Shown: positions 24,463 through 34,405 of the stretch, piece after piece
How the letters are laid out: every line of letters begins with the position of its first letter
Position numbering within the stretch: the stretch's first letter is position 1
Origin: an uncultured Candidatus Saccharibacteria bacterium
Lineage (GTDB): Bacteria; Patescibacteriota; Minisyncoccia; Phycocordibacterales; DATDWN01
Direction of reading: 5' to 3'
NCBI GenBank assembly: GCA_964552275.1
Contig: CAZKFS010000001.1
Location: 1-35,433 of the forward strand
Length of the DNA stretch: 35,433 nt
Notes under the pieces: model-generated
What the model was told of the DNA's origin: nothing
Databases searched by the model: none
The model's input: the letters and a program-made list of their open reading frames with translations, nothing else
Position numbers and translations under genes: made by a program

Positions 24463-24762
24463 CTAAGAAACTGGCATATATAGATCTTCTCTCAATTTTC
24501 TCATCTCATCTTTTATCAACAACTCCAATGTAGGGATTTTTGTCCTCAAAAACAACATCACATCCTGTACTGTGGTCGCATCTTTGTCCAATATACCATC
24601 TAGTTCGTCCTCCTCTTTATCAGACAAGAAATCCAGAGACCTGACTAGGATCGCTTGGTATAGCATAGTGCCCAGACGGTCCATTATCTCAAACCTCTTC
24701 TTCTCCGGAAGAGATTCCAGGCCCCAATCTTTTATTAGATCTTTTGATAAAATGTCGTTCAT
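24463..24762 (-). CDS. small acidic helical hypothetical protein (99 aa)
   Basis: ORF track. It starts 5 nt after the upstream 756-aa gene and has native AT-rich composition. I recognise no motif with certainty. Confidence 0.6.
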   Translation of the reverse strand: MNDILSKDLIKDWGLESLPEKKRFEIMDRLGTMLYQAILVRSLDFLSDKEEDELDGILDKDATTVQDVMLFLRTKIPTLELLIKDEMRKLREDLYMPVS

Positions 24763-24767
24763 AATAT

Positions 24768-27038
24768 TTAGACTTTTTTATTTATCCTATCTAATTCCCT
24801 TACAGCTAACTTAAAAGCCTCCTCTTCATCTGTTCCCAAGAACCATGAACCCTTGAACTCTGGCTTTACTGACAACTTTCCACCCACAGGGCCTCCTCCT
24901 ATCTCTCTACCATTCAAAACTATTCTAAAAGCATCAGAGTCTCTAATAACTTTTATTTCACCAGACTCGTACGGTATTCTATGAAAAACTTCACTCTTCA
25001 TAAAATCACCTTCTTCACTATGCATTATTCCAGAAAACTTCTTTATATTTCCAGTAGAAACATCATATAAAACATCTTTACTACCATCCAATTTTTCATA
25101 TACAACGTTTCCTTCTTCGGTAACAACCAAACTCTCCCCTTTAAAACCGACACCACTCAATTTTTTGGCTGGGTTATAAAAACCAAAAGTCTCAGCCAAA
25201 TATTCTGTTGGAATATCTATAATGTTGGTTTTTATTTTTTCAGGAATATTATTCGCAGAACCATAATTCTGCTTAATCTTTTCCTTGAGCTCATCTAGAG
25301 TTTTTATAAAACCTTTGGGAGAAACCTCTACTCTGTTTTCTGTTTTTTTAGTTTCAGCACTGTCTTTCAGTTCTACATCAGAAACTGCAGTTCCTTTGCC
25401 CGACAACCCATCCAGCATATTCAAATCTGGTGAGCCAGCATTATTTGGAGTCAAACCAAGAATAGCTGTAACTGCAAGTATATGAGCAGTTCTTGGAATA
25501 AGAGACAGTTTTTTAAAACTTTTTGCTATAATCCTCTGCTCAACTGGTTTTCTCTGCTCAAGCATCTCTTTTTCCAAAATATTGCGCTCTTCTTCAACCT
25601 CTTCCAGAAGTTTGACGTTCACCTCATAAGTTTCCATGTTGCTAAGTCCGATCAAAGATCCTGGTTGATTGTCCTCCCTAAATCTAGTCTCTGTAGGTAG
25701 TTTGTGTATACCCAAAGCTTTTATCTTTGCTTGGTGAGCTTCTCTGTACTTTGTCTCAGCGAGATCTATCTCTTTATTAAAAATTTCCAAAGAAACTGGT
25801 TTTGTTACACCCAAATCTGAAAAGATTCTACCTATAACATTTTGTCTTTCACGAATTTTATTTCTATGTTGAAAATATTGACTTACATATTCTGTACGAG
25901 CCTCAACCAGCCTAGCCTCTACAGCTTCTAAGGCATCCTCAGCCTTACTCTCTACAACTTCATCTGTGACGACAGCTTCTTTTTTTTCTGTGACAAAATC
26001 ATCAACCTTACTCTCCACAACTTTCTCACCATTTTTTTTCTTTAATTCTACTTTTTCTTCTTCTCGTAACTCAGTCTCCAACCTTAGTACTTCGGCTTCG
26101 TCTCTATATTTTTCTGCAACCGCAATACGATCCCTGAGCTCAGCTATTCTACCTGTATATTTTGGTTTAGTAGGTTCATTATCTTCCTCAGGCTTTGCTT
26201 CTTTTTTAGAAGAACCTTCCTGTTCCGCTAAACGCAATTCATTTTCCAAGCGTAAAACTTCTTCTTCATCATCTTTTGCCTCTGCTTTTTTAATTAGCTT
26301 TCTGAGCCCTACTACTCTATCTGTCTTTTCTGGTTTATCCAAAGAAACTTCAGGTGAAACTTCATCATCTTCCACTGGAAAATCTTCAGCAACTACTTCA
26401 TCTTGATGAGTATCTTCAAAACCCAAAATTTCCAATAATTCTTCATAATCTCCTCTTATCTTCGAAAGAGCTCCCTTCTTTTTTGATAACTTATCTATGA
26501 TCATTCTTGCTTCATCTTTAGTTTCTGCATGTGTTAAATCCCACTTAGCATCCCTGAGAGAAGTCTTTATAGAGTGGTTACCTTCAGTGCTTATGAGTCC
26601 ATTCAGATAGTTGATCGCTCCTTTTCTAGCTTTTGGTGACAAGTCTAAAACTTTAAAGTCTGACTCGACTTTTTCTGGTTCTGGTATTTTTTCTGGTTGC
26701 ACTTCAACAACTGGGGCTGGTTCACCAACCTCTTCCTCACTAATAAAATCACCAGACTCTTCTGCTGTTACGGGTTCTTCAGATTTTTTATCATCATCAA
26801 ATGATAATATTTTGTCTCCATCTTCAGCATCAAACTCACTTAAATAATCTTCTTCATCATCTATAATTACTCCATCCCTATCAACTCTCTCCATAATTCT
26901 AATAGGCACGTGACGACCACCTTCTCTTTGAGAGTCTAAAATGGAATGTCTGTTGTGTTCTGGCACAACATATTCAGGATTTATTTGTCCGTATTGAACT
27001 CTTCTTTCTTTTCCCCCAGATTCAATAGTAGTGTGCAT
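24768..27038 (-). CDS. large acidic coiled-coil protein with one TM segment (756 aa), unknown function
   Basis: Very high E/D/K content. Internal repeat EVLRLENELR / EVLRLETELR. Hydrophobic segment AHILAVTAILGLT. The C-terminal ~200 aa are less biased. Confidence 0.65.
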   Translation of the reverse strand: MHTTIESGGKERRVQYGQINPEYVVPEHNRHSILDSQREGGRHVPIRIMERVDRDGVIIDDEEDYLSEFDAEDGDKILSFDDDKKSEEPVTAEESGDFISEEEVGEPAPVVEVQPEKIPEPEKVESDFKVLDLSPKARKGAINYLNGLISTEGNHSIKTSLRDAKWDLTHAETKDEARMIIDKLSKKKGALSKIRGDYEELLEILGFEDTHQDEVVAEDFPVEDDEVSPEVSLDKPEKTDRVVGLRKLIKKAEAKDDEEEVLRLENELRLAEQEGSSKKEAKPEEDNEPTKPKYTGRIAELRDRIAVAEKYRDEAEVLRLETELREEEKVELKKKNGEKVVESKVDDFVTEKKEAVVTDEVVESKAEDALEAVEARLVEARTEYVSQYFQHRNKIRERQNVIGRIFSDLGVTKPVSLEIFNKEIDLAETKYREAHQAKIKALGIHKLPTETRFREDNQPGSLIGLSNMETYEVNVKLLEEVEEERNILEKEMLEQRKPVEQRIIAKSFKKLSLIPRTAHILAVTAILGLTPNNAGSPDLNMLDGLSGKGTAVSDVELKDSAETKKTENRVEVSPKGFIKTLDELKEKIKQNYGSANNIPEKIKTNIIDIPTEYLAETFGFYNPAKKLSGVGFKGESLVVTEEGNVVYEKLDGSKDVLYDVSTGNIKKFSGIMHSEEGDFMKSEVFHRIPYESGEIKVIRDSDAFRIVLNGREIGGGPVGGKLSVKPEFKGSWFLGTDEEEAFKLAVRELDRINKKV

Positions 27039-27159
27039 ATGAATATATTGTATCGCTTTTAAAAATACTGCGCAATAAAAAATTGCTAGGTTAAAACAAA
27101 ATTGTCACCAGAACCACCAAAGAAAGTAATTTGATTGGATGAAATGCGACGTGAGAAAA

Positions 27160-27208
27160 CAAAAAACACCCGGAGGTGTACATGTAGTACATTGACGGGT
27201 GTTTTTTG
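27160..27208. terminator. terminator after fusA with a TGTAC-core inner hairpin
   Basis: acacccg (27166-27172) / cgggtgt (27196-27202) encloses gtgtacatgtagtacat and is flanked by A and T runs. Confidence 0.7.
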
Positions 27209-27237
27209 TTTTGGGAACGAGTAGTTCGCCAATAAAA

Positions 27238-29379
27238 TTACTTTCTTGATTCCACTATTGTTTTCTCAATATTTGGTGGCACCACCTCATAATGATCAAA
27301 CTCCATCATTATACTTCCTCTTCCTTGAGTCATTGATCTTATATCTGTTGTATAACCAAACATTTCAGATAGTGGAACTTTTGCGTGAATAACTCGGAGC
27401 ATTCCTCTCTCATCCATACCTTCTATTTGACCACGTTTACCAGAAAGTGAACCTGTTATATCTCCCATGAACTGTTCTGGCATTATAGCTTCAACTTTCA
27501 TAATAGGCTCTAGAATAACTGGCTTTGCTCTCTTGGCTGCGTCTTGGAAAGCTTGCGATGCTGCGATTTTATAAGCGATTTCAGATGAGTCCACGTCGTG
27601 ATAAGAACCAAAAGTAAGTTCACAAGAAATATTTACCATTTTGTATCCAGCGACTATACCTCTATCCATTGCTTCGTGAACACCTTTTTCAACTGCAGGA
27701 ATAAACTCTTGTGGAATAACACCTCCTTTGATTGAATCGATGAATTCGAAGTCTTCATATCGATGAACGTTCTTTGGAATTTTTGCACCTTCTTCCAATT
27801 TCTCTAGAGGTTTGATAGTAAGCTTTACGTGACCGTACTGACCCTTACCTCCAGTTTGTTTTATGTATTTGTGTTCAGCGTCAGCAGATGCCAAGATAGT
27901 TTCTCTGTATGCTACTTGTGGTTTACCGACATTTACTTCCACACCGAACTCTCTTTTCATACGATCCACCATGATTTCAAGATGTAGTTCTCCCATTCCA
28001 GAAATAATACTTTCACCGGTATCAGTGTTTGATGAAATAATGAAAGTTGGATCCTCATCAGAAAGTTTTTTCATGGCCATACCCATTTTCTCTTGGTCAG
28101 CTTTTGTTTTTGGTTCTATTCTTAGAGACACCACTGGATCAACGAACTTGATAGGGTCAAGCAAAATAGGGTTACTCTCATCACAAAATGTATGTGATGT
28201 TTTTGCAGACTTTAGTCCCACAGCTGCTGCTATTTCTCCAGCAAAAACTTTCTTTACCTCTTCACGTTTGTCAGCCTGAAGTCTTACTATACGTCCCAGT
28301 CTTTCTTTTTCACCTGTTGTTGAGTTATATATATATGAACCAGCTTCTATTGTTCCAGAGTAAACTCTAAAGAATGTTAGCTGTCCCACGAATGGATCGT
28401 TTTGAAGTTTGAAAGCAAGAGCAGAAAAAGGCTCAGTATCAGAAGCTTTTCTATAAATTTCTTCGTTTGTTTTTGGATCAAGTCCGTGAACTGGAGGAAT
28501 ATCTAGTGGAGATGGTAGATAATCAACCACGCCATCTAGAACCAACTGAACACCTTTGTTTTTCAAAGCTGAACCAGCAAATACTGGGATGATTTTTACA
28601 GCGAGAGAAGCGGCTCTCAAAGTTGCTTTCAAAACATCGTATGATGGCTCTTTGCCTTCTAGATAACCCGCCATCAAAGCATCGTCTTGCTCAACGATTT
28701 TCTCCACAAGTTCTGCTCGATATTTCTTGGCCTCATCCAAATATTCTGCAGGTATTTCCTCTTCACGAATACTCATACCCATATTTCCTTCGAAATAAAA
28801 GGCTTTCATTTTCATTAGATCGATAACTCCTTCGAACTTATCTTCTAGTCCCATTGGGATTTGCACACGAACTGCATTTTTATTTAGTCGGTCTAGAATA
28901 GATGCGTATGAACGCTCAAAAGATGCTCCTGTTCTATCTAGTTTGTTGATAAAACAAATTCTTGGAACATTTCCATCGTCTGCGTATCTCCAGTTTGTTT
29001 CTGATTGAGGTTCTACACCAGCAACTCCATCGAAAACCACAACCGCACCGTCCAAAACTCTAAGAGATCTTTTCACTTCAGCTGTAAAGTCGATGTGACC
29101 AGGAGTATCGATAACGTTGAAACGATATTCTGGTTTTTGGCCTCTTGGCATATATGTAGGGTTCCAGAAACATGTAATAGCCGCTGCTGTAATAGTGATA
29201 CCACGTTCTCGCTCTTGCTCCATCCAGTCTGTAACTGTTGCACCGTCATGCACCTCACCTATTTTGTGAGTCATTCCTGTGTAGAACAAAACGCGCTCTG
29301 ATGTTGTTGTTTTACCAGCATCAATGTGAGCTATAATACCGAAGTTTCTAACCTTATCTAATGTATAATCGCGGTTCAT
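27238..29379 (-). CDS. fusA: elongation factor G
   Basis: [23 protein letters not shown] motifs; 713 aa. Confidence 0.97.
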
Positions 29380-29545
29380 AAATAATTGATAATTTCTATT
29401 AAGTTAAATAAAAAAGCCCTTAGGCGTCAAGGAAAACTATATACCAAAAGCCCTTTTTGAGCAATGACTATATAATCAATATCTAAGGTGTCAGAAATCA
29501 CCAAACTCGTCGAATCCACAACTTTTTTCATCACCAGCAAGATAC

Positions 29546-32287
29546 CTATTTCTTGTACTTCTTCAAAATGTTAGCTTCGATTTCTGCCCTATCCCCTCCA
29601 TAAGTCATATAGGAAAGTTGTTTTAAGTTTTCAATAATAGCAGGGTTGCCTTTTGGTGCTGGTTCAGCTTTCATATTAAATGCTTTTGCTGGTCTTCCAC
29701 CTACGAGCATTTTTACAATAGCATTGTAGTTATCAATACTCATTATATCTTTAGCGGTAAATACGGGACTGAACTGTTTCTCTAAATACTCAGCATCTTC
29801 TGCTCCAACTCGGTAAGAAATAATAGAGCCCACGTTACCAAACACAGCATCTCGAATGTCATCTTGCAATTGAGCGATAAACTGATGCGCAATATTTAGA
29901 GATAGTTTATATTTTCTAGCTTCAGACAAAATAGTGGCTATAGAATTTGTGGTTATATTTTGAAACTCATCTATATATAGATAAAATGGCGGGAAATCCT
30001 TACCTATTGAATCCACTCTAGAAAGAGCTGCCATCAAAATCTTTCCTACTAGGATAAGACCTATAAGGTTGGCGTTAATATCTCCCAATCTTCCTTTAGA
30101 TAGATTGACCAGAAGAATCTTCTTTTCATCCATTATTTGTCGGAAATTGAAAGATGATTTTTCTTGAGCAATAATAGGTCGCATAATATCGTTAGCCAAA
30201 AACACATCAAATTTTGAAGTTATATATGGAACAATGTTAGCAAGTGACGCCTCCCCTCCAGCTTTTTCTGCAACCTCTGTCCAGAACTGATAAACAACAG
30301 GGTTTTTACATTTCGACAACTTCATCATTCTGAATTCTTTATTTGTCATCACCCTAGAAACATCGAGAAGAGTGCACCCTGAATCTGGATCTTCTATTAC
30401 AAGCATTGTCGCATTACGAAAATACTGTTCAAACATTGGCCCTAGAGATTCTGGCACACCACCATAAAGTTTTTGGAATATGCTAAACAATTCATTGACC
30501 ACAAAAGTTTTTTGTTCTGGGAATCTTGGATCGTACTCCAGCATATTAAGAGCCATCGGTCTGTCTGTATAACTAGGATCAAAATATATAACATCTGTTA
30601 ACCTCTCCTGTGGAATATTCGAGAGTATATCCAAAACATCAGAACCATGAGGATCGATAAAACAAGCACCGAGTCCCGCCTTTATATCCTGAACTATCAT
30701 GTTTTTTAGCAAAGTTGTTTTACCTGTACCAGTTTGTCCGATAGTGTAGGTGTGTCTGAGTCTGTCTTCGTCCTGCATATATATAGGTGTATCGACATTA
30801 CGATAAGAATTCACCCCAAGTCTAGTGCCAGATCCCACCATATCAGATGGGGCTGGCGCAGAAACAGATTGTGTTTGTTTTAGTTGAGGTGTCGGTGAAA
30901 GTGCTGTTGTGTGGAAATGAATCAGGGTTGTAAATTCATGGAGGTTGAGTGGCAAAACCTTTGCGGAATCATAAGTTCTAAAAGAAAAATCTCTTAGCAT
31001 TTTATTTAGAGCACTCTTCTCTAACCTTCTAGGTCTTAGGCCTGTTGAAGCAGAATCAGTGAACTGATTGAAGCTTGATTCCAAACTGGTGAGTATCCTC
31101 TCTGCATCAGGGCGACTTTGTGCCGATGCAACCAGACGAATATTTGTAGCAACAATAGTACTGGATATTTTTTGTTTTATTTTTTGTATTGCCTCACTAT
31201 CGATAGGCTTTTTCTCCTCATCTGGTTTTGGAGCTGATTTAAAGAGAGAAGACAAAGTTTTGCCCAGTTCTCCACCAAAAGTCTCTGGAATATCTATGGC
31301 CTCCTTTGTTGGTATACCTTTTTCTATTTTTTCAATAGCGTATTCATATTTTTTATTATAATAATCACCTCTTGGAGAGAAAATTATTTGAATACCGGCT
31401 CCCTCCCCCTCTTTTTGTATTTTAGAAAAACTATTCAATATAACGTTGAGTGGATCATGATCAAAAGACTCATATGTTTTTATTTGATAGATAGGATTGT
31501 TACTAGATTCTAGATATGAACCTATAGAAACTCCGTCACTGTTAAAAATATTGTAGTCCGAAGTAGTTTCAGTTAACTTGGCGTTGTGAAAAACTGATAT
31601 CATCTGTCTCTCAAACAAATCTTTGTGTAGGTTAGGTACGGCAACATAGAAAACAAACTGGTCGCTTCCGTTTGGGTTAGCGATCTCGAGAACAATATAA
31701 TTCTCTCTATAATTCTTCGTACTATCTTTTGACACAACCGAAAGCATGCCGGCCAAAAACTGCTCCATACTCGAAACCACCTCCTTTAGACTCTTTGTTT
31801 TTTCTTGACCTTTGTCTTCAGGCAAAATCACCTCGTACAATGCCATGTCGAGACCCATGAATTCCTTACTCCTCACATCAATATCTTTACCCTTATAACC
31901 ATTTTTTAAGTATTGAACTAAGAATCTATGAAAATCGTCTTCTAGGTGAGGATCTTTGAAACCGGATATAACTGACATTGTGTTTTTTATACCATTTTCG
32001 TTTAGAACAACGAGAAGTTCTGTCATCTTTTTATCGTGAGTTTCTGGAGCAAGGTTTAATATAATAGTCTCAGCGTCATGTTTAGCTATTGCATAAGTCT
32101 CATCTAAAACCTCCTTTGGTAACACATCCCTATAACGAGATATTTCTTCTCCTACAACTTGATCAAGTTTTACATCAAAACTCTTTTCTCTATACTCTGC
32201 TTCTTTTTGGGAAATCTTTTCTCTCAGAAAAGCGATTTCTTGTTCTGGGCTAGTAAACTGAGGTAGTGTCTCTGCATTTTTTTCCAT
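29546..32287 (-). CDS. TraD/VirD4 (type IV coupling protein)-like or HerA/FtsK-superfamily P-loop ATPase with a large unassigned N-terminal domain
   Basis: Walker A GQTGTGKTT, then FIDPHGSD. Walker B LYIDEFQN. ARKYKLSLNIAHQFIAQL. No obvious TM helix in the first ~480 aa. Confidence 0.65.
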   Translation of the reverse strand: MEKNAETLPQFTSPEQEIAFLREKISQKEAEYREKSFDVKLDQVVGEEISRYRDVLPKEVLDETYAIAKHDAETIILNLAPETHDKKMTELLVVLNENGIKNTMSVISGFKDPHLEDDFHRFLVQYLKNGYKGKDIDVRSKEFMGLDMALYEVILPEDKGQEKTKSLKEVVSSMEQFLAGMLSVVSKDSTKNYRENYIVLEIANPNGSDQFVFYVAVPNLHKDLFERQMISVFHNAKLTETTSDYNIFNSDGVSIGSYLESSNNPIYQIKTYESFDHDPLNVILNSFSKIQKEGEGAGIQIIFSPRGDYYNKKYEYAIEKIEKGIPTKEAIDIPETFGGELGKTLSSLFKSAPKPDEEKKPIDSEAIQKIKQKISSTIVATNIRLVASAQSRPDAERILTSLESSFNQFTDSASTGLRPRRLEKSALNKMLRDFSFRTYDSAKVLPLNLHEFTTLIHFHTTALSPTPQLKQTQSVSAPAPSDMVGSGTRLGVNSYRNVDTPIYMQDEDRLRHTYTIGQTGTGKTTLLKNMIVQDIKAGLGACFIDPHGSDVLDILSNIPQERLTDVIYFDPSYTDRPMALNMLEYDPRFPEQKTFVVNELFSIFQKLYGGVPESLGPMFEQYFRNATMLVIEDPDSGCTLLDVSRVMTNKEFRMMKLSKCKNPVVYQFWTEVAEKAGGEASLANIVPYITSKFDVFLANDIMRPIIAQEKSSFNFRQIMDEKKILLVNLSKGRLGDINANLIGLILVGKILMAALSRVDSIGKDFPPFYLYIDEFQNITTNSIATILSEARKYKLSLNIAHQFIAQLQDDIRDAVFGNVGSIISYRVGAEDAEYLEKQFSPVFTAKDIMSIDNYNAIVKMLVGGRPAKAFNMKAEPAPKGNPAIIENLKQLSYMTYGGDRAEIEANILKKYKK

Positions 32288-32331
32288 GAGTTTATTATAT
32301 ACGATTGATTAAACAGTGGCTATTTATATAT

Positions 32332-32374
32332 TGTTATATTCACTTTGCATGGTAACAAAAATCCCCTTTCGGGG
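32332..32374. repeat. 43-nt perfect direct repeat, copy 1
   Basis: tgttatattcactttgcatggtaacaaaaatcccctttcgggg is identical to 32430-32472. Confidence 0.9.
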
Positions 32375-32429
32375 GAAATTCGTCCCGGAAGAAAAATTAA
32401 TGAAGTAATTTTTCTTACCGACCAAGCAC

Positions 32430-32472
32430 TGTTATATTCACTTTGCATGGTAACAAAAATCCCCTTTCGGGG
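32430..32472. repeat. 43-nt perfect direct repeat, copy 2 (forms the left arm of the rpsG hairpin)
   Basis: Compared character by character with 32332-32374. Confidence 0.9.
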
Positions 32473-32494
32473 ATTTTTGTTACCATGCAAAGTG
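32439..32494 (-). terminator. perfect 26-bp hairpin incorporating the last four codons and the stop codon of rpsG
   Basis: cactttgcatggtaacaaaaatcccc - tttc - ggggatttttgttaccatgcaaagtg. On the RNA the loop is GAAA. Confidence 0.7.
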
Positions 32495-32956
32495 AGCGAA
32501 GGCCTTGTTTGCCTCAGCCATCTTGTGAGTATCCTCTCTTTTCTTTACTGCCTTACCCTCGTTTTTAGCTGCTAGGATGATTTCATCTGCAAGTCTAGAA
32601 GCCATAGGAGCGCCTTTGCCTTCTCTGGCAGCCTCAATAATCCACTTCATAGACAAGAAAGATCTTCTCTCTGGTCTAACCTCTCTAGGAATCTGATAGT
32701 TAGCACCTCCAACTCTTCGTGATCGAACTTCTGTAATAGGACCTGTATTTTTCATCGCAGTATCGAAAACCTCCATTGGATCTACTACCGTAGCTCCGCC
32801 TTTTGTCTTAATGATCTCAAGGGCCTCATAAACAATACCTCTAGCTGTCTCCTTTTGACCACGTAGCATTACGTAGTTAATAAATTTACCAATCTTCTCT
32901 GAGTTGAAGACATGATCTGGACCTACTATGTTTCTGTTAGTTACTTTTCTTCGCAT
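32480..32956 (-). CDS. rpsG: 30S ribosomal protein S7
   Basis: MRRKVTNRNIVGPD..., KFINYVMLRGQKETA. Confidence 0.95.
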   Translation of the reverse strand: MRRKVTNRNIVGPDHVFNSEKIGKFINYVMLRGQKETARGIVYEALEIIKTKGGATVVDPMEVFDTAMKNTGPITEVRSRRVGGANYQIPREVRPERRSFLSMKWIIEAAREGKGAPMASRLADEIILAAKNEGKAVKKREDTHKMAEANKAFAHFAW

Positions 32957-33035
32957 TTGTTTTTATTCTTTATTCTAAATTATGATTTCCTTTGCCTGAG
33001 GACTACCTCATGCATAAGTGTTCGCTTACGCTCCC

Positions 33036-33452
33036 TTACTTACCTGCCTTAGGACGCTTTGCTCCGTATCTTGATCTACCCTTCATTCTCTTCTCCACTC
33101 CAGTAGCATCGAGCATACCTCTAACGACTGTATATCTAACTCCAACGTCCTTTACCTTACCCCCTCGAAGCAATACCACTGAGTGCTCCTGAAGGTTGTG
33201 TCCCATTCCTGGAATATAAGCTGTTACCTCTAGACCGTTTGTAAGACGAACACGAGCAATCTTTCGAATAGCTGAGTTAGGCTTCTTTGGAGTCTTTGTT
33301 GTAACCTTTGTACAAACCCCTCTTTTGAACGGAGCTGGGTAAAGTACAGGTCTGTTAGTAAGAGTATTGAATCCACGAGTAAGAGCCACAGCTTTAGGCT
33401 TTGTTTTTATACTCTTTCGCTTTCGTCTTATTAACTGATTGATTGTTGACAT
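33036..33452 (-). CDS. rpsL: 30S ribosomal protein S12
   Basis: I chose the start at [14 protein letters not shown] (ATG 33450-33452). [15 protein letters not shown] motif. Confidence 0.95.
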
Positions 33453-33515
33453 TGCAGGGTTTACTCTAATATATCTTATTAAAAAACACAAGTGACTGAC
33501 TCATAGTAACAAAAA

Positions 33516-34121
33516 TTATCTCAGCAAGCCTGTTATTAGGTCAAACTCTATGTATACCAAAGGAACTATATACTGCCAGAGGAAAAAGATGAAAAACAAT
33601 AACAAGAAGAAGCCGTTTCTTTCTAGAAAATCCCTCGTACCAGATAAACTATTTGGAAATACAGAAAACAGGATTTTTGAACCATCTAGAGGTGGTATTG
33701 GGATGAGATTAAACGTAGCTAGAACCAGATTGATCAATACTATATATATGAAAGACTCAGCTAGTGACACAAACAAACCAAATCTGAGCATCAAACCAAA
33801 AACTACAGCTATAAATATGTTGGATAGTGGTCCAGCTAGGGCAACCATCGCCTCTCCCCACCTCTGATTCCGGAGATTATATGGATTAAATGGAACAGGT
33901 TTAGCCCAACCTATTATCATAGGAGAACCGGATATAAAAAGCAGCCCGGGTATAACAATAGATCCCATCAAATCAATATGGGGCATTGGATTTAAGGTGA
34001 GTCTTCCAGAAAACTTGGCTGTATTGTCCCCTTGCAGATAAGCCGCATAGCCATGTGAAACCTCATGGATTATGACCGAAAAAATGAAAATTATTATGTT
34101 AAAAATGAAATCTATTTGCAT
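33516..34121 (-). CDS. M50-family (site-2 protease-like) membrane metalloprotease
   Basis: HEVSHGY HExxH motif inside a TM helix, NLIPIPPLDGSK motif, multiple TM segments. Confidence 0.8.
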   Translation of the reverse strand: MQIDFIFNIIIFIFSVIIHEVSHGYAAYLQGDNTAKFSGRLTLNPMPHIDLMGSIVIPGLLFISGSPMIIGWAKPVPFNPYNLRNQRWGEAMVALAGPLSNIFIAVVFGLMLRFGLFVSLAESFIYIVLINLVLATFNLIPIPPLDGSKILFSVFPNSLSGTRDFLERNGFFLLLFFIFFLWQYIVPLVYIEFDLITGLLR

Positions 34122-34162
34122 ATTATTGCTTTTATGTTAACATAACCAAGCAATAAAAACAT

Positions 34163-34405
34163 ATGGCAAAGACATGCGAAATTACAGGTAAATCATCTCA
34201 AATGGGGGGCGGATACTCTAACCGAACTCGTGCGACTCAGTTCAACCCAATTGGCATGAAGAGAAGATATGTAAATCTCCAAAAAAAGAGAATCTATATT
34301 CCTGAACTTAAAAAATCAGTGACTCTAACTCTTTCTACAGACGCAATCAAAACTATTCAAAAGAACGGGGCGTACGCCACCCTCAAAAAAGCCGGATTGA
34401 TATAA
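34163..34405 (+). CDS. rpmB: 50S ribosomal protein L28
   Basis: MAKTCEITGKSSQMGGGYSNRTRAT...; 80 aa. Confidence 0.9.
   Translation: MAKTCEITGKSSQMGGGYSNRTRATQFNPIGMKRRYVNLQKKRIYIPELKKSVTLTLSTDAIKTIQKNGAYATLKKAGLI

What the first reader, a model, noticed from the sequence alone, without database searches (positions are those of the whole stretch)
29546..32287. 913-aa coupling-protein-like ATPase wedged between rpsG and fusA
rpsL-rpsG-fusA-tuf is among the most conserved gene strings in bacteria, yet here a 2.7-kb gene separates S7 from EF-G.
Its C-terminal half has Walker A GQTGTGKTT, FIDPHGSD, Walker B LYIDEFQN and ARKYKLSLNIAHQFIAQL. These are characteristic of TraD/VirD4/TrwB-type coupling proteins and HerA/FtsK-like translocases.
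The N-terminal ~480 aa are unassigned and lack the TM anchor usual for coupling proteins.
Composition and the absence of an SD are native, so this is not a recent insert like the GC-rich cassettes. No other type IV secretion or conjugation genes are visible in the window. A ComEC-type gene lies 2 kb away, which hints at a DNA-uptake or translocation role. That hint is speculative.
Basis: partly seen in the sequence, partly recalled or inferred. Interest (0 to 1): 0.6.

Follow-up and report, generated by a model that had tools for sequence, protein, structure and literature searches.

The report
Relocated orphan secretion-type ATPase gene
The big gene between ribosomal protein S7 and EF-G is a motor ATPase related to type IV secretion proteins that nearly all ultra-small Patescibacteria carry, and it moved into this slot only recently, so the position is a curiosity, not a new system.

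Summary
A 913-aa ORF (29546-32287, minus strand) lies between rpsG and fusA and carries the quoted Walker A, Walker B and ARKY...QL motifs.

The protein is not a local oddity. It belongs to a core family found in 398 of 401 sampled Patescibacteria genomes. Public sources name it a 'T4SS conjugative DNA transfer family' or 'TraM recognition domain' protein, and Pfam lists its front part as DUF8128. A 2025 survey counted the family among the orphan VirD4-type homologues of this phylum.

It has three parts:
- Residues 486-880 are a TrwB/VirD4-like P-loop motor.
- Residues 140-485 (DUF8128) fold like the N-terminal domain of VirB4.
- Residues 1-135 are a fused copy of a small helical protein. Other classes encode this protein just upstream, and in them the ATPase starts with a membrane anchor instead.

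The placement in the str operon is real. Two genome assemblies span it and four run assemblies support the fusA side. It is not conserved: 0 of 29 genus members and 0 of 29 phylum loci from other genomes show it. One sister species shares it. The usual site, between dgkA and yqeY, is empty in this genome. The gene moved once, with its own promoter, into an rpsG-fusA gap that varies across the genus.

Its function is untested. I infer a hexameric translocase motor that does not act in conjugation.

The parts
29546..32287 (-). 913-aa ORF (P0001), an orphan DUF8128 + VirD4-like ATPase
   Evidence: More than 8000 homologues, all labelled Patescibacteria or Parcubacteria. Present in 398 of 401 genomes of the phylum.
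31883..32287 (-). Residues 1-135: soluble helical N-terminal extension, a fused copy of a small partner protein that takes the place of the membrane anchor
   Evidence: hhalign of this region (A3) against the small proteins encoded just upstream of the ATPase in other classes (A2): probability 92.7%, E 4e-7, over residues 79-133. 15 of 85 family representatives have this fused form and none of them has a hydrophobic segment.
30833..31870 (-). Residues 140-485: DUF8128 domain with a VirB4 N-terminal-domain-like fold
   Evidence: AF2 model of the domain: pLDDT 85, pTM 0.84. All 14 significant PDB hits are TrwK/VirB4 of R388 (E 1.6e-7 to 4e-4, TMq 0.39-0.48), and the next hit has E 7e-3. The PF26449 label comes from precomputed hits.
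29648..30832 (-). Residues 486-880: TrwB/VirD4-type P-loop ATPase with a helical insert (about residues 592-720)
   Evidence: Pfam TraG-D_C 24.3 bits against a cut-off of 22. Family profile against PDB sequences: TrwB 1e-6, DotL 3e-6. Foldseek: TrwB E 6e-11, 417 columns, TMt 0.65, rmsd 4.7.
30713..30739 (-). Walker A, GQTGTGKTT (residues 517-525)
   Evidence: G517, G520 and K523 are invariant in 67 diverse homologues.
29957..29980 (-). Walker B, LYIDEFQN (residues 770-777)
   Evidence: D773 and E774 are invariant.
29867..29920 (-). ARKYKLSLNIAHQFIAQL, the TraG-D_C-type arginine and sensor motif (residues 790-807)
   Evidence: R791, K792, Q802 and Q806 are invariant.
32294..32322 (-). The gene's own promoter-like site, TAGCCA-17-TATAAT. 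The ATG follows 6 nt after the -10 box, so the mRNA is probably leaderless
   Evidence: The same ATCGTATATAAT...ATGGAA precedes the orthologue at its ancestral site (L032), so the promoter moved with the gene.
32332..32494 (-). rpsG terminator hairpin built on the last rpsG codons (32439-32494), plus a duplicated 43-nt arm that forms a second terminator-like hairpin (32362-32377)
   Evidence: Logan contigs end inside the repeat, at 32361 or 32331. The sister species has the equivalent hairpin.
29467..29494 (-). Promoter-like site for fusA, downstream of the inserted gene
   Evidence: The motif TTGCTCAAAA...GTATATAGTTTT is shared with the sister species upstream of fusA.
32480..32956 (-). rpsG (S7), upstream flank of the landing gap
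27238..29379 (-). fusA (EF-G), downstream flank of the landing gap
   Evidence: TIGR00484, 1035 bits.

Best explanation
The ORF is this genome's copy of a core, vertically inherited Patescibacteria protein. It is an 'orphan' ATPase of the VirB4/VirD4 branch of FtsK-HerA P-loop motors.

Its architecture has three parts:
1. A fused helical partner domain (residues 1-135). In most other lineages this is a separate small protein encoded directly upstream, and the ATPase there begins with a single membrane anchor.
2. DUF8128 (residues 140-485), which folds like the VirB4 N-terminal (docking) domain.
3. A TrwB/VirD4-like nucleotide-binding domain with a helical insert (residues 486-880). All its catalytic residues are invariant across the family.

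Inferred mechanism, not shown: it forms a ring that hydrolyses ATP and threads or hands over a macromolecular substrate (DNA or protein) at the cell envelope. It would be recruited through the VirB4-like domain and the partner domain. It does not act in relaxase-dependent conjugation, and it is not genetically tied to the virB4 cluster.

Its position between rpsG and fusA has no functional meaning for translation. The gene moved once, as a self-contained unit with its own leaderless promoter. It went from the ancestral dgkA|yqeY site into an rpsG-fusA spacer that is a variable cargo-holding gap in this genus. The move happened in the common ancestor of this species and one sister species.
For: Family and distribution:
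- More than 8000 homologues, named 'T4SS conjugative DNA transfer family' or 'TraM recognition domain', with PF26449.
- 398 of 401 genomes of the phylum have a match, mostly one full-length copy plus an ATPase-only paralogue.
- 20,335 clusters at 50% identity match at E <= 1e-3.
- Literature: 5,713 VirD4-type homologues in 2,918 of 3,035 Patescibacteria genomes, only 148 of them near virB4, and relaxases are rare (PMC12102498).

Architecture:
- Sequence and fold matches to T4CPs and VirB4.
- Partner fusion.
- 64 of 70 non-fused representatives have a hydrophobic N-terminus.
- Catalytic residues are invariant.

Relocation:
- rpsG or fusA lies next to the orthologue in 0 of 29 loci from other genomes across the phylum and 0 of 29 loci from the genus and family.
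- The same arrangement occurs in one other species, carrying P0008 at 79% identity.
- P0001 and P0008 are sisters (support 100/94). The next branch, P0005, sits at dgkA|yqeY.
- That context is shared by orthologues at 78, 75 and 68% identity.
- In this genome, dgkA and yqeY lie about 290 bp apart on contig C36 with no ATPase between them.
- The promoter sequence is conserved between the old and new sites.
- The rpsG-fusA gap ranges from 78 bp to more than 1.5 kb in the genus, and most of its ORFs have no relative in the other gaps.

Separate transcription unit: terminator-like hairpins follow rpsG and the gene has its own promoter.

The T4SS lies elsewhere in this genome: the VirB4 and TrsD-like genes are on contig C18.
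Against: - No experiment or expression data bears on function. Substrate, oligomeric state and partners are all inferred.
- The structural match of DUF8128 to the VirB4 N-terminal domain is moderate (TMq 0.39-0.48, 8-10% identity). No sequence profile comparison supported it.
- Only Pfam TraG-D_C passes a curated threshold. All NCBIfam T4CP models fall far below their cut-offs.
- The reported non-essentiality of 't4cp' in S. epibionticum (PMC12102498) could refer to either paralogue.
- Duplication followed by loss of the original copy, instead of a direct move, is not excluded.
Confidence: 0.75

Rival explanations
1. It is a classical conjugative coupling protein (TraD/VirD4). It would be the remnant or part of an integrative conjugative element that landed in the str operon.
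For: The ATPase motifs and the TraG-D_C match. T4CP-like hits of 24-34% identity on conjugative plasmids of Bacillus, Streptomyces and archaea.
Against: - The family is near-universal and single-copy in the phylum, and its tree tracks taxonomy.
- Its composition is native.
- No integrase, relaxase or T4SS gene flanks it, here or at the ancestral site.
- It has no membrane domain.
- Its N-terminal domain has no tblastn match on plasmids.
- Relaxases are rare in the phylum (PMC12102498).
Confidence: 0.03
2. The str-operon position is adaptive. The ATPase would be co-expressed with ribosomal proteins and EF-G and would act on translation or ribosome biogenesis.
For: It points the same way as rpsL-rpsG-fusA-tuf and the spacers are short.
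Against: - The position is shared by only two sister species.
- Two terminator-like hairpins and a private promoter separate it from rpsG.
- fusA has its own promoter-like site.
- The same gap holds unrelated cargo in other species.
Confidence: 0.04
3. It is the cytoplasmic motor for DNA uptake and works with the ComEC channel in natural transformation.
For: - Patescibacteria are naturally competent and depend on ComEC for this (PMC12857230).
- A ComEC-type MBL gene lies 2 kb away, and the ComEC channel gene lies just beyond it on the longer contig.
- The motor belongs to the family of DNA-pumping ATPases.
Against: - The nearness to ComEC results from the relocation. At the ancestral site the neighbours are dgkA, alkD-like, yqeY and rmuC.
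- No conserved linkage to competence genes appeared in 29 phylum loci.
- There are no functional data.
Confidence: 0.12
4. It is really a second, very divergent VirB4-type assembly ATPase and not a coupling-type substrate motor.
For: The best full-length Foldseek hits are full-length TrwK/VirB4 (E 1e-15, about 900 aligned columns). The N-domain hits only VirB4. The TM-anchored form found in most lineages resembles VirB3-VirB4 fusions.
Against: - Sequence profiles favour T4CPs (TrwB, DotL, TraD, TraG-D_C). VirB4 models match only at the Walker A motif.
- The C-terminal domain superposes better on TrwB (TMt 0.65, rmsd 4.7) than on VirB4.
- A canonical TrsD + VirB4 pair already exists on contig C18.
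- It is not linked to VirB3/6/8-like genes.
Confidence: 0.15
5. It is a domesticated phage gene or a defence or exclusion ATPase.
For: - Full-length homologues occur in Bacillus and Geobacillus phages. phrog_5156 matches at E 8e-80.
- TP-84 gp48 aligns with hhalign probability 99.8% over 650 columns.
- BFVD hits reach TMq 0.63.
- There is a weak PADLOC mad8 hit.
Against: - It is a core, single-copy, vertically inherited gene in a whole phylum.
- Its neighbours are housekeeping genes.
- The PADLOC hit is only 40 bits and covers the generic P-loop region.
- The direction of transfer, phage to cell or cell to phage, is unknown.
Confidence: 0.06

Closest known systems
Type IV coupling proteins (VirD4 / TrwB / TraD / DotL / Cag-beta)
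   Same: The C-terminal 400 aa share the RecA-like nucleotide-binding fold with a helical insert, the Walker A and B motifs, and the TraG-D_C arginine and Q motifs. Among solved structures, TrwB (1e9r) is the best-superposing match for the ATPase domain (TMt 0.65). With DotL it is also the best sequence-profile match.
   Different: - There is no two-helix membrane domain.
- A 345-aa VirB4-like domain and a fused partner domain lie in front of the motor.
- The gene is chromosomal, core, and not linked to a relaxase or T4SS genes.
- It scores far below the curated cut-offs of all NCBIfam T4CP models.
VirB4 / TrwK (R388) type IV secretion ATPase
   Same: The layout has two domains, and the N-terminal domain has the same fold. 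TrwK gives the best full-length Foldseek hits and the only significant hits for the isolated N-domain.
   Different: - Sequence identity is 8-12% and the relative domain orientation differs (rmsd 16-17).
- VirB4 sequence models match only at the Walker A motif.
- A separate, much more conserved TrsD + VirB4 pair exists in the same genome.
Orphan VirD4-type T4CP homologues of Patescibacteria (Quinonero-Coronel et al. 2025, PMC12102498); Pfam DUF8128
   Same: This is the same family, with about two copies per genome that are rarely near virB4. The paper raises the possibility of exaptation to another function.
   Different: In the passages read, the paper does not describe the VirB4-like N-domain, the partner fusion in place of the anchor, or any str-operon copy.
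phrog_5156 proteins of Bacillus/Geobacillus phages (phage G gp156, TP-84 gp48, PBC5_050)
   Same: They are full-length homologues covering DUF8128 and the ATPase. The PHROG matches at E 8e-80, and hhalign gives 99.8% probability.
   Different: They are phage-borne and lie in the early or recombination gene region. Identity is 19-26% and their function is also unknown.
HerA / FtsK hexameric translocases
   Same: They belong to the same superfamily of ring ATPases. HerA 4d2i is a Foldseek hit at E 1e-11.
   Different: They are more distant than TrwB and VirB4. No HAS-barrel or FtsK gamma domain is present. A bona fide FtsK exists on contig C9.

Membership tests
Type IV coupling protein (VirD4/TraG/TraD/TrwB) | N-terminal transmembrane domain (usually two helices) that anchors the hexamer in the membrane | tested here: not met
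   No hydrophobic 19-residue window lies outside the ATPase core. In other lineages the family has a single N-terminal hydrophobic segment (64 of 70 non-fused representatives).
Type IV coupling protein (VirD4/TraG/TraD/TrwB) | TrwB-like nucleotide-binding domain with Walker A and B motifs and an inserted all-alpha domain | tested here: met
   Foldseek against TrwB: E 6e-11, 417 of about 420 residues aligned, TMt 0.65. Profile against TrwB: E 1e-6. Helical insert at 592-720 in the model. Catalytic residues are invariant.
Type IV coupling protein (VirD4/TraG/TraD/TrwB) | Passes a curated family model | tested here: inconclusive
   Pfam TraG-D_C scores 24.3 against a cut-off of 22, so it passes. 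TrwB_AAD_bind scores 17.6 against 20.5 and fails. NCBIfam TraD, VirD4 and MobC models score 27-49 bits against cut-offs of 250-900 and fail.
Type IV coupling protein (VirD4/TraG/TraD/TrwB) | Genetic and functional coupling to a relaxase or oriT and a mating-pair-formation system | tested here: not met
   No such genes lie within the window or within 6-8 kb in five related loci. The genome's VirB4 cluster is on another contig. I did not search this genome for a relaxase; the literature reports relaxases in only 103 of 3,035 genomes of the phylum.
VirB4 (TrwK/TraC/CagE) | VirB4-type N-terminal domain fold | tested here: met
   The isolated N-domain model gives 14 significant PDB hits, all of them TrwK/VirB4 (E 1.6e-7 to 4e-4, TMq 0.39-0.48). 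This is similarity of fold only. No sequence-level support was found.
VirB4 (TrwK/TraC/CagE) | Matches VirB4 sequence models (PF03135, TIGR00929) | tested here: not met
   TIGR00929 scores 25.6 bits against a cut-off of 643, at the Walker A motif only. PF03135 has no hit in the genome.
VirB4 (TrwK/TraC/CagE) | Encoded within the T4SS cluster next to VirB3/VirB6/VirB8-type genes | tested here: not met
   Its neighbours are rpsG and fusA here, and dgkA, yqeY and rmuC at the ancestral site.
Patescibacterial DUF8128 + T4CP-like orphan ATPase family | Full-length homology covering DUF8128 and the ATPase, present as a core gene | tested here: met
   Orthologues at 40-81% identity cover at least residues 145-910 in 398 of 401 genomes. 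The PF26449 label comes from precomputed hits. That model is not in the local Pfam copy.
FtsK/SpoIIIE | FtsK_SpoIIIE motor domain over the Pfam cut-off | tested here: not met
   PF01580 scores 16.1 bits against a cut-off of 24 on this ORF. The real FtsK is on contig C9 (197 bits).

The most novel reading that the evidence does not exclude
DUF8128 ATPases would be a third, unrecognised class of type IV secretion-related motor. They keep a VirB4-type docking domain and carry a VirD4-type substrate motor. They work with a dedicated small helical partner, which is encoded upstream or, as here, fused in place of the membrane anchor. The class would be universal in Patescibacteria and shared with Bacillus-type phages. 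It would act independently of the virB4 cluster in an envelope DNA- or protein-handling process that has not been described.
Probability: 0.3. Interest if true: 0.65.

Novelty: new member of a known kind. Interest (0 to 1): 0.3.

Why it matters
The locus shows that even rpsL-rpsG-fusA-tuf, one of the most conserved gene strings in bacteria, is loose in these tiny genomes. Its spacers take up cargo, and that cargo can be a relocated core gene carrying its own promoter.

The protein matters more than its address. A motor ATPase kept by almost every member of a huge uncultured phylum, and by some phages, still has no known substrate. Three new leads give concrete handles for experiments in the few Patescibacteria that can be cultivated:
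- its front half looks like the VirB4 docking domain;
- it has a dedicated small partner, fused in this order;
- most relatives are membrane-anchored.

Tried and rejected
- A single-sequence search against PDB sequences gave only chance hits. The profile search was needed.
- hhalign of the family against this genome's own TrsD-like and VirB4 proteins, given as single sequences, was uninformative. The VirB4 homologues I collected are 87-93% identical, too alike to make a useful profile, so I did not pursue it.
- Pfam on 23 isolated N-domains gave nothing. PF26449 is not in the local library.
The spread of DUF8128 outside the phylum therefore rests only on the phage and plasmid searches.
- The N-domain has no tblastn hit on plasmids.
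- The small ORF upstream of the TP-84 phage homologue is not similar to the partner protein.
- The recurrent downstream 190-250-aa neighbour has no Pfam match and is absent from this genome.
- I considered replacement of FtsK and rejected it, because FtsK is present.
- I considered a defence role. The only support is a weak mad8 hit.
- Rfam on the vacated dgkA|yqeY spacer found nothing credible.
Full report
**Observation.**
The window encodes a 913-aa ORF on the minus strand at 29546-32287. It lies between rpsG (32480-32956) and fusA (27238-29379). rpsL lies upstream. A second wedge, a 756-aa acidic ORF, separates fusA from tuf.

G+C matches the flanks. There is no transmembrane segment; the only hydrophobic stretch lies inside the ATPase core.

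The arrangement is not an assembly artefact. A 167-kb contig of a second genome assembly is 100% identical over 27000-34200. Contigs assembled from four separate sequencing runs carry the ORF-fusA junction. Those contigs stop inside a 43-nt repeat upstream of the ORF.

**What the protein is.**
A homology search returned more than 8000 proteins. Every source name on the listed hits places them in Patescibacteria or Parcubacteria, apart from one MAG labelled Nitrospira among the VirB4 hits. Public sources name them 'TraM recognition domain-containing' or 'type IV secretory system conjugative DNA transfer family protein'. They carry the precomputed Pfam family PF26449 (DUF8128) in front of T4CP-type domains.

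In a sample of 401 genomes spread over the phylum, 398 have a match. Most have two. In this genome the second match is a paralogue of about 607 aa on contig C25. It consists of the ATPase domain and a low-complexity tail. An exhaustive search of cluster representatives found 20,335 clusters at E <= 1e-3.

This agrees with a 2025 survey. It counted 5,713 VirD4-type homologues in 2,918 of 3,035 Patescibacteria genomes, only 148 of them near virB4. Relaxases were found in only 103 genomes. The authors noted that the Saccharibacterial t4cp was not essential for epibiotic growth and might have been exapted (PMC12102498). Wang et al. 2023 state that the essential T4SS cluster of S. epibionticum lacks a recognisable coupling protein and relaxase (PMC10633639).

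**Domain anatomy.**
- *ATPase half.* At sequence level the C-terminal half is closest to coupling proteins. Pfam TraG-D_C just passes its cut-off. NCBIfam TraD and VirD4 models match weakly and far below their cut-offs. A 67-sequence family profile finds TrwB (E 1e-6) and DotL (3e-6) among solved structures.
- *Full-length model.* An AlphaFold2 model of the whole protein (pLDDT 85.7, pTM 0.71) superposes on TrwB over 417 columns, with TMt 0.65 and rmsd 4.7. Its best Foldseek hits, however, are full-length VirB4/TrwK chains of the R388 system (E about 1e-15, about 900 aligned columns).
- *DUF8128.* I modelled residues 140-485 on their own (pLDDT 85.1, pTM 0.84). All 14 significant PDB hits are TrwK/VirB4 (E 1.6e-7 to 4e-4, TMq 0.39-0.48). 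The next hit is an unrelated fold at E 7e-3. DUF8128 therefore has the fold of the VirB4 N-terminal domain. This is a resemblance of fold only, and I could not support it with sequence profiles.
- *N-terminal extension.* Orthologues from other classes are 780-860 aa long and begin with a hydrophobic segment. Among 85 representatives, 64 of the 70 non-fused ones have such an anchor, and the 15 fused ones have none. In 10 of the 25 loci with anchored, shorter orthologues, a 130-195-aa protein is encoded immediately upstream. Its C-terminal motif is homologous to residues 79-133 of this protein (hhalign probability 92.7%, E 4e-7). In this order of bacteria the partner has therefore been fused to the ATPase in place of the anchor.
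- *Catalytic residues.* G517, G520, K523, D773, E774, R791, K792, Q802 and Q806 are invariant across 67 homologues that are 30-80% identical to this protein. The family is very probably an active ATPase.

**Relatives outside the phylum.**
The family has full-length homologues in phages of Bacillus and Geobacillus:
- phrog_5156 matches residues 147-910 at E 8e-80.
- TP-84 gp48 aligns over 650 columns with 99.8% hhalign probability.
- The N-domain model hits phage G gp156 and related proteins with TMq 0.63-0.64.

In the phages the gene lies among early genes, next to the recombination and replication modules. On plasmids only the ATPase half finds relatives, annotated 'T4SS DNA-binding domain' proteins at 24-34% identity. 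The N-domain finds none.

**The str-operon position.**
The position is not conserved. None of the 29 orthologous loci from other genomes across the phylum has rpsG or fusA within 1.5 kb. Neither does any of 29 loci from other species of the genus and family.

Orthologues at 78, 75 and 68% identity lie in a shared context: murE-like ligase, dgkA, (alkD-like), the ATPase, small ORFs, yqeY, rmuC, rplU, recR, dnaB. An 80% orthologue lies next to pilus genes. Only one other species shows S12-S7-ATPase-(65-aa ORF)-EF-G. Its protein, P0008, is 79% identical.

In a maximum-likelihood tree the two str-located proteins are sisters (support 100/94). The next branch, P0005 (98/90), sits at dgkA|yqeY. In this genome that ancestral site is empty. 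On contig C36, dgkA and yqeY lie about 290 bp apart, with rmuC beyond them.

The sequence just upstream of the ATG, ATCGTATATAAT...ATGGAA, is the same at the old site and the new one, so the promoter travelled with the gene. The two str-located species also share the sequence downstream of rpsG.

The landing place is a variable gap. Across the genus the rpsG-fusA spacer ranges from 78 bp to more than 1.5 kb. Most of its ORFs have no relative in the other gaps.

The gene forms its own transcription unit. The rpsG terminator hairpin and a duplicated second hairpin precede it. A TAGCCA-17-TATAAT site ends 6 nt before the ATG, which explains the missing Shine-Dalgarno sequence. fusA keeps its own promoter-like site.

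The ComEC-type genes near the window's end belong to the conserved surroundings of the str region, and they are present in the sister species too. They are not neighbours of the ATPase at its ancestral site. The DNA-uptake hint therefore rests on a coincidence.

**How it probably works.**
Shown:
- It belongs to a core family.
- It has a VirD4-like motor with intact catalytic residues.
- It has a VirB4-like N-domain fold.
- Its partner protein is fused, and most relatives are membrane-anchored.
- It is not linked to T4SS or relaxase genes. The genome's TrsD + VirB4 cluster lies on contig C18, and a true FtsK lies on C9.

Inferred: like its relatives, it forms a ring that uses ATP to move or deliver a macromolecule at the membrane. 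It would dock through DUF8128 and the partner domain. The process is not classical conjugation. I cannot tell whether the substrate is DNA or protein, or whether the motor serves the T4SS-like machine, competence or something else. I give the rival readings low to moderate odds.

**Comparison and verdict.**
The protein works like a member of the VirB4/VirD4 group. It fails defining features of both families:
- T4CP: no two-helix membrane domain, no linkage to a relaxase or T4SS, and scores below the curated NCBIfam cut-offs.
- VirB4: no match to the VirB4 sequence models and not encoded in a T4SS cluster.

It is best filed in the already catalogued Patescibacterial DUF8128 + T4CP-like family. 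Earlier follow-ups of this scan, on orthologues in other genomes, reached the same family assignment and the same VirB4-like N-domain. I reproduced both points independently here.

Three things are specific to this locus: the single, recent relocation into the rpsG-fusA gap; the fusion of the partner in place of the anchor; and the full-length phage homologues. The finding is real but largely explained, so its interest is modest.

Noticed in passing
window 24463-27038 (minus strand): A second wedge in the str string. A 756-aa acidic ORF with no Pfam match and a 99-aa ORF lie between fusA and tuf. The sister species (L044) has different cargo in that gap (a PaaX_M-like 130-aa ORF, a 393-aa ORF and a 94-aa ORF), with only a short 42% match to the C-terminus of the 756-aa ORF.
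   Followed up: partly
L044 8742-8939, and the rpsG-fusA gaps of L080, L082, L083, L089, L097, L099, L104 and L105: A conserved ORF of about 64 aa with one transmembrane segment (ME.F.DL.KDPAHW.FE...HHKSDHERLEDLEREV) lies directly upstream of fusA in at least 8 genomes of the genus and in the sister species. It is absent from this genome (no tblastn hit at E <= 10).
   Followed up: partly
G000 contig C36, 2022-2313 (L111): The vacated dgkA|yqeY site holds a spacer of about 290 bp that is much more G+C-rich than the genome. It contains the hairpin GGGCCGATCGC...GCGATCAGCCC. No Rfam family matched.
   Followed up: partly
G000 contig C25, 6620-8464 (L045): An ATPase-only paralogue (45% identical to residues 497-882) with a long low-complexity tail. 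It lies directly after a type IV pilin-like gene (N_methyl motif) and has its own TGTGTTATAAT box 9 nt before the ATG, so it also looks leaderless.
   Followed up: partly
L018, L019, L020, L022, L024, L025, L027, L029 and L031, downstream of the ATPase gene: A 190-250-aa protein with the motif EGVFDG..M.G.DGK.Y.VP.NYASKSKLVEGD.LKL follows the ATPase gene in 9 of 29 phylum loci. It has no Pfam match and no homologue in this genome. It may be a second partner.
   Followed up: partly
window 32439-32494 and L044 5790-5830: The terminator hairpin built from the last rpsG codons and the stop codon is also present in the sister species, with a different inner stem. The structure, not the sequence, is conserved. 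In this genome its 3' arm is duplicated 98 nt downstream.
   Followed up: partly
proteins P0179, P0180, P0186, P0188 and P0192-P0197: Some family members are 1,400-2,000 aa long. The DUF8128 + ATPase unit lies at the N-terminus and is followed by very long C-terminal extensions of unknown nature.
   Followed up: no
G000 contig C18, 6529-9023: The genome's TrsD-like and VirB4 genes are adjacent. This VirB4 is 87-93% identical in its 120 best database matches, while the 120 best matches of the orphan ATPase are only 67-81% identical. The orphan ATPase appears to evolve much faster.
   Followed up: no
L022 208-603: A short second DUF8128-like fragment (26% identity to residues 172-308) lies next to the full-length gene in one genome of another family.
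   Followed up: no
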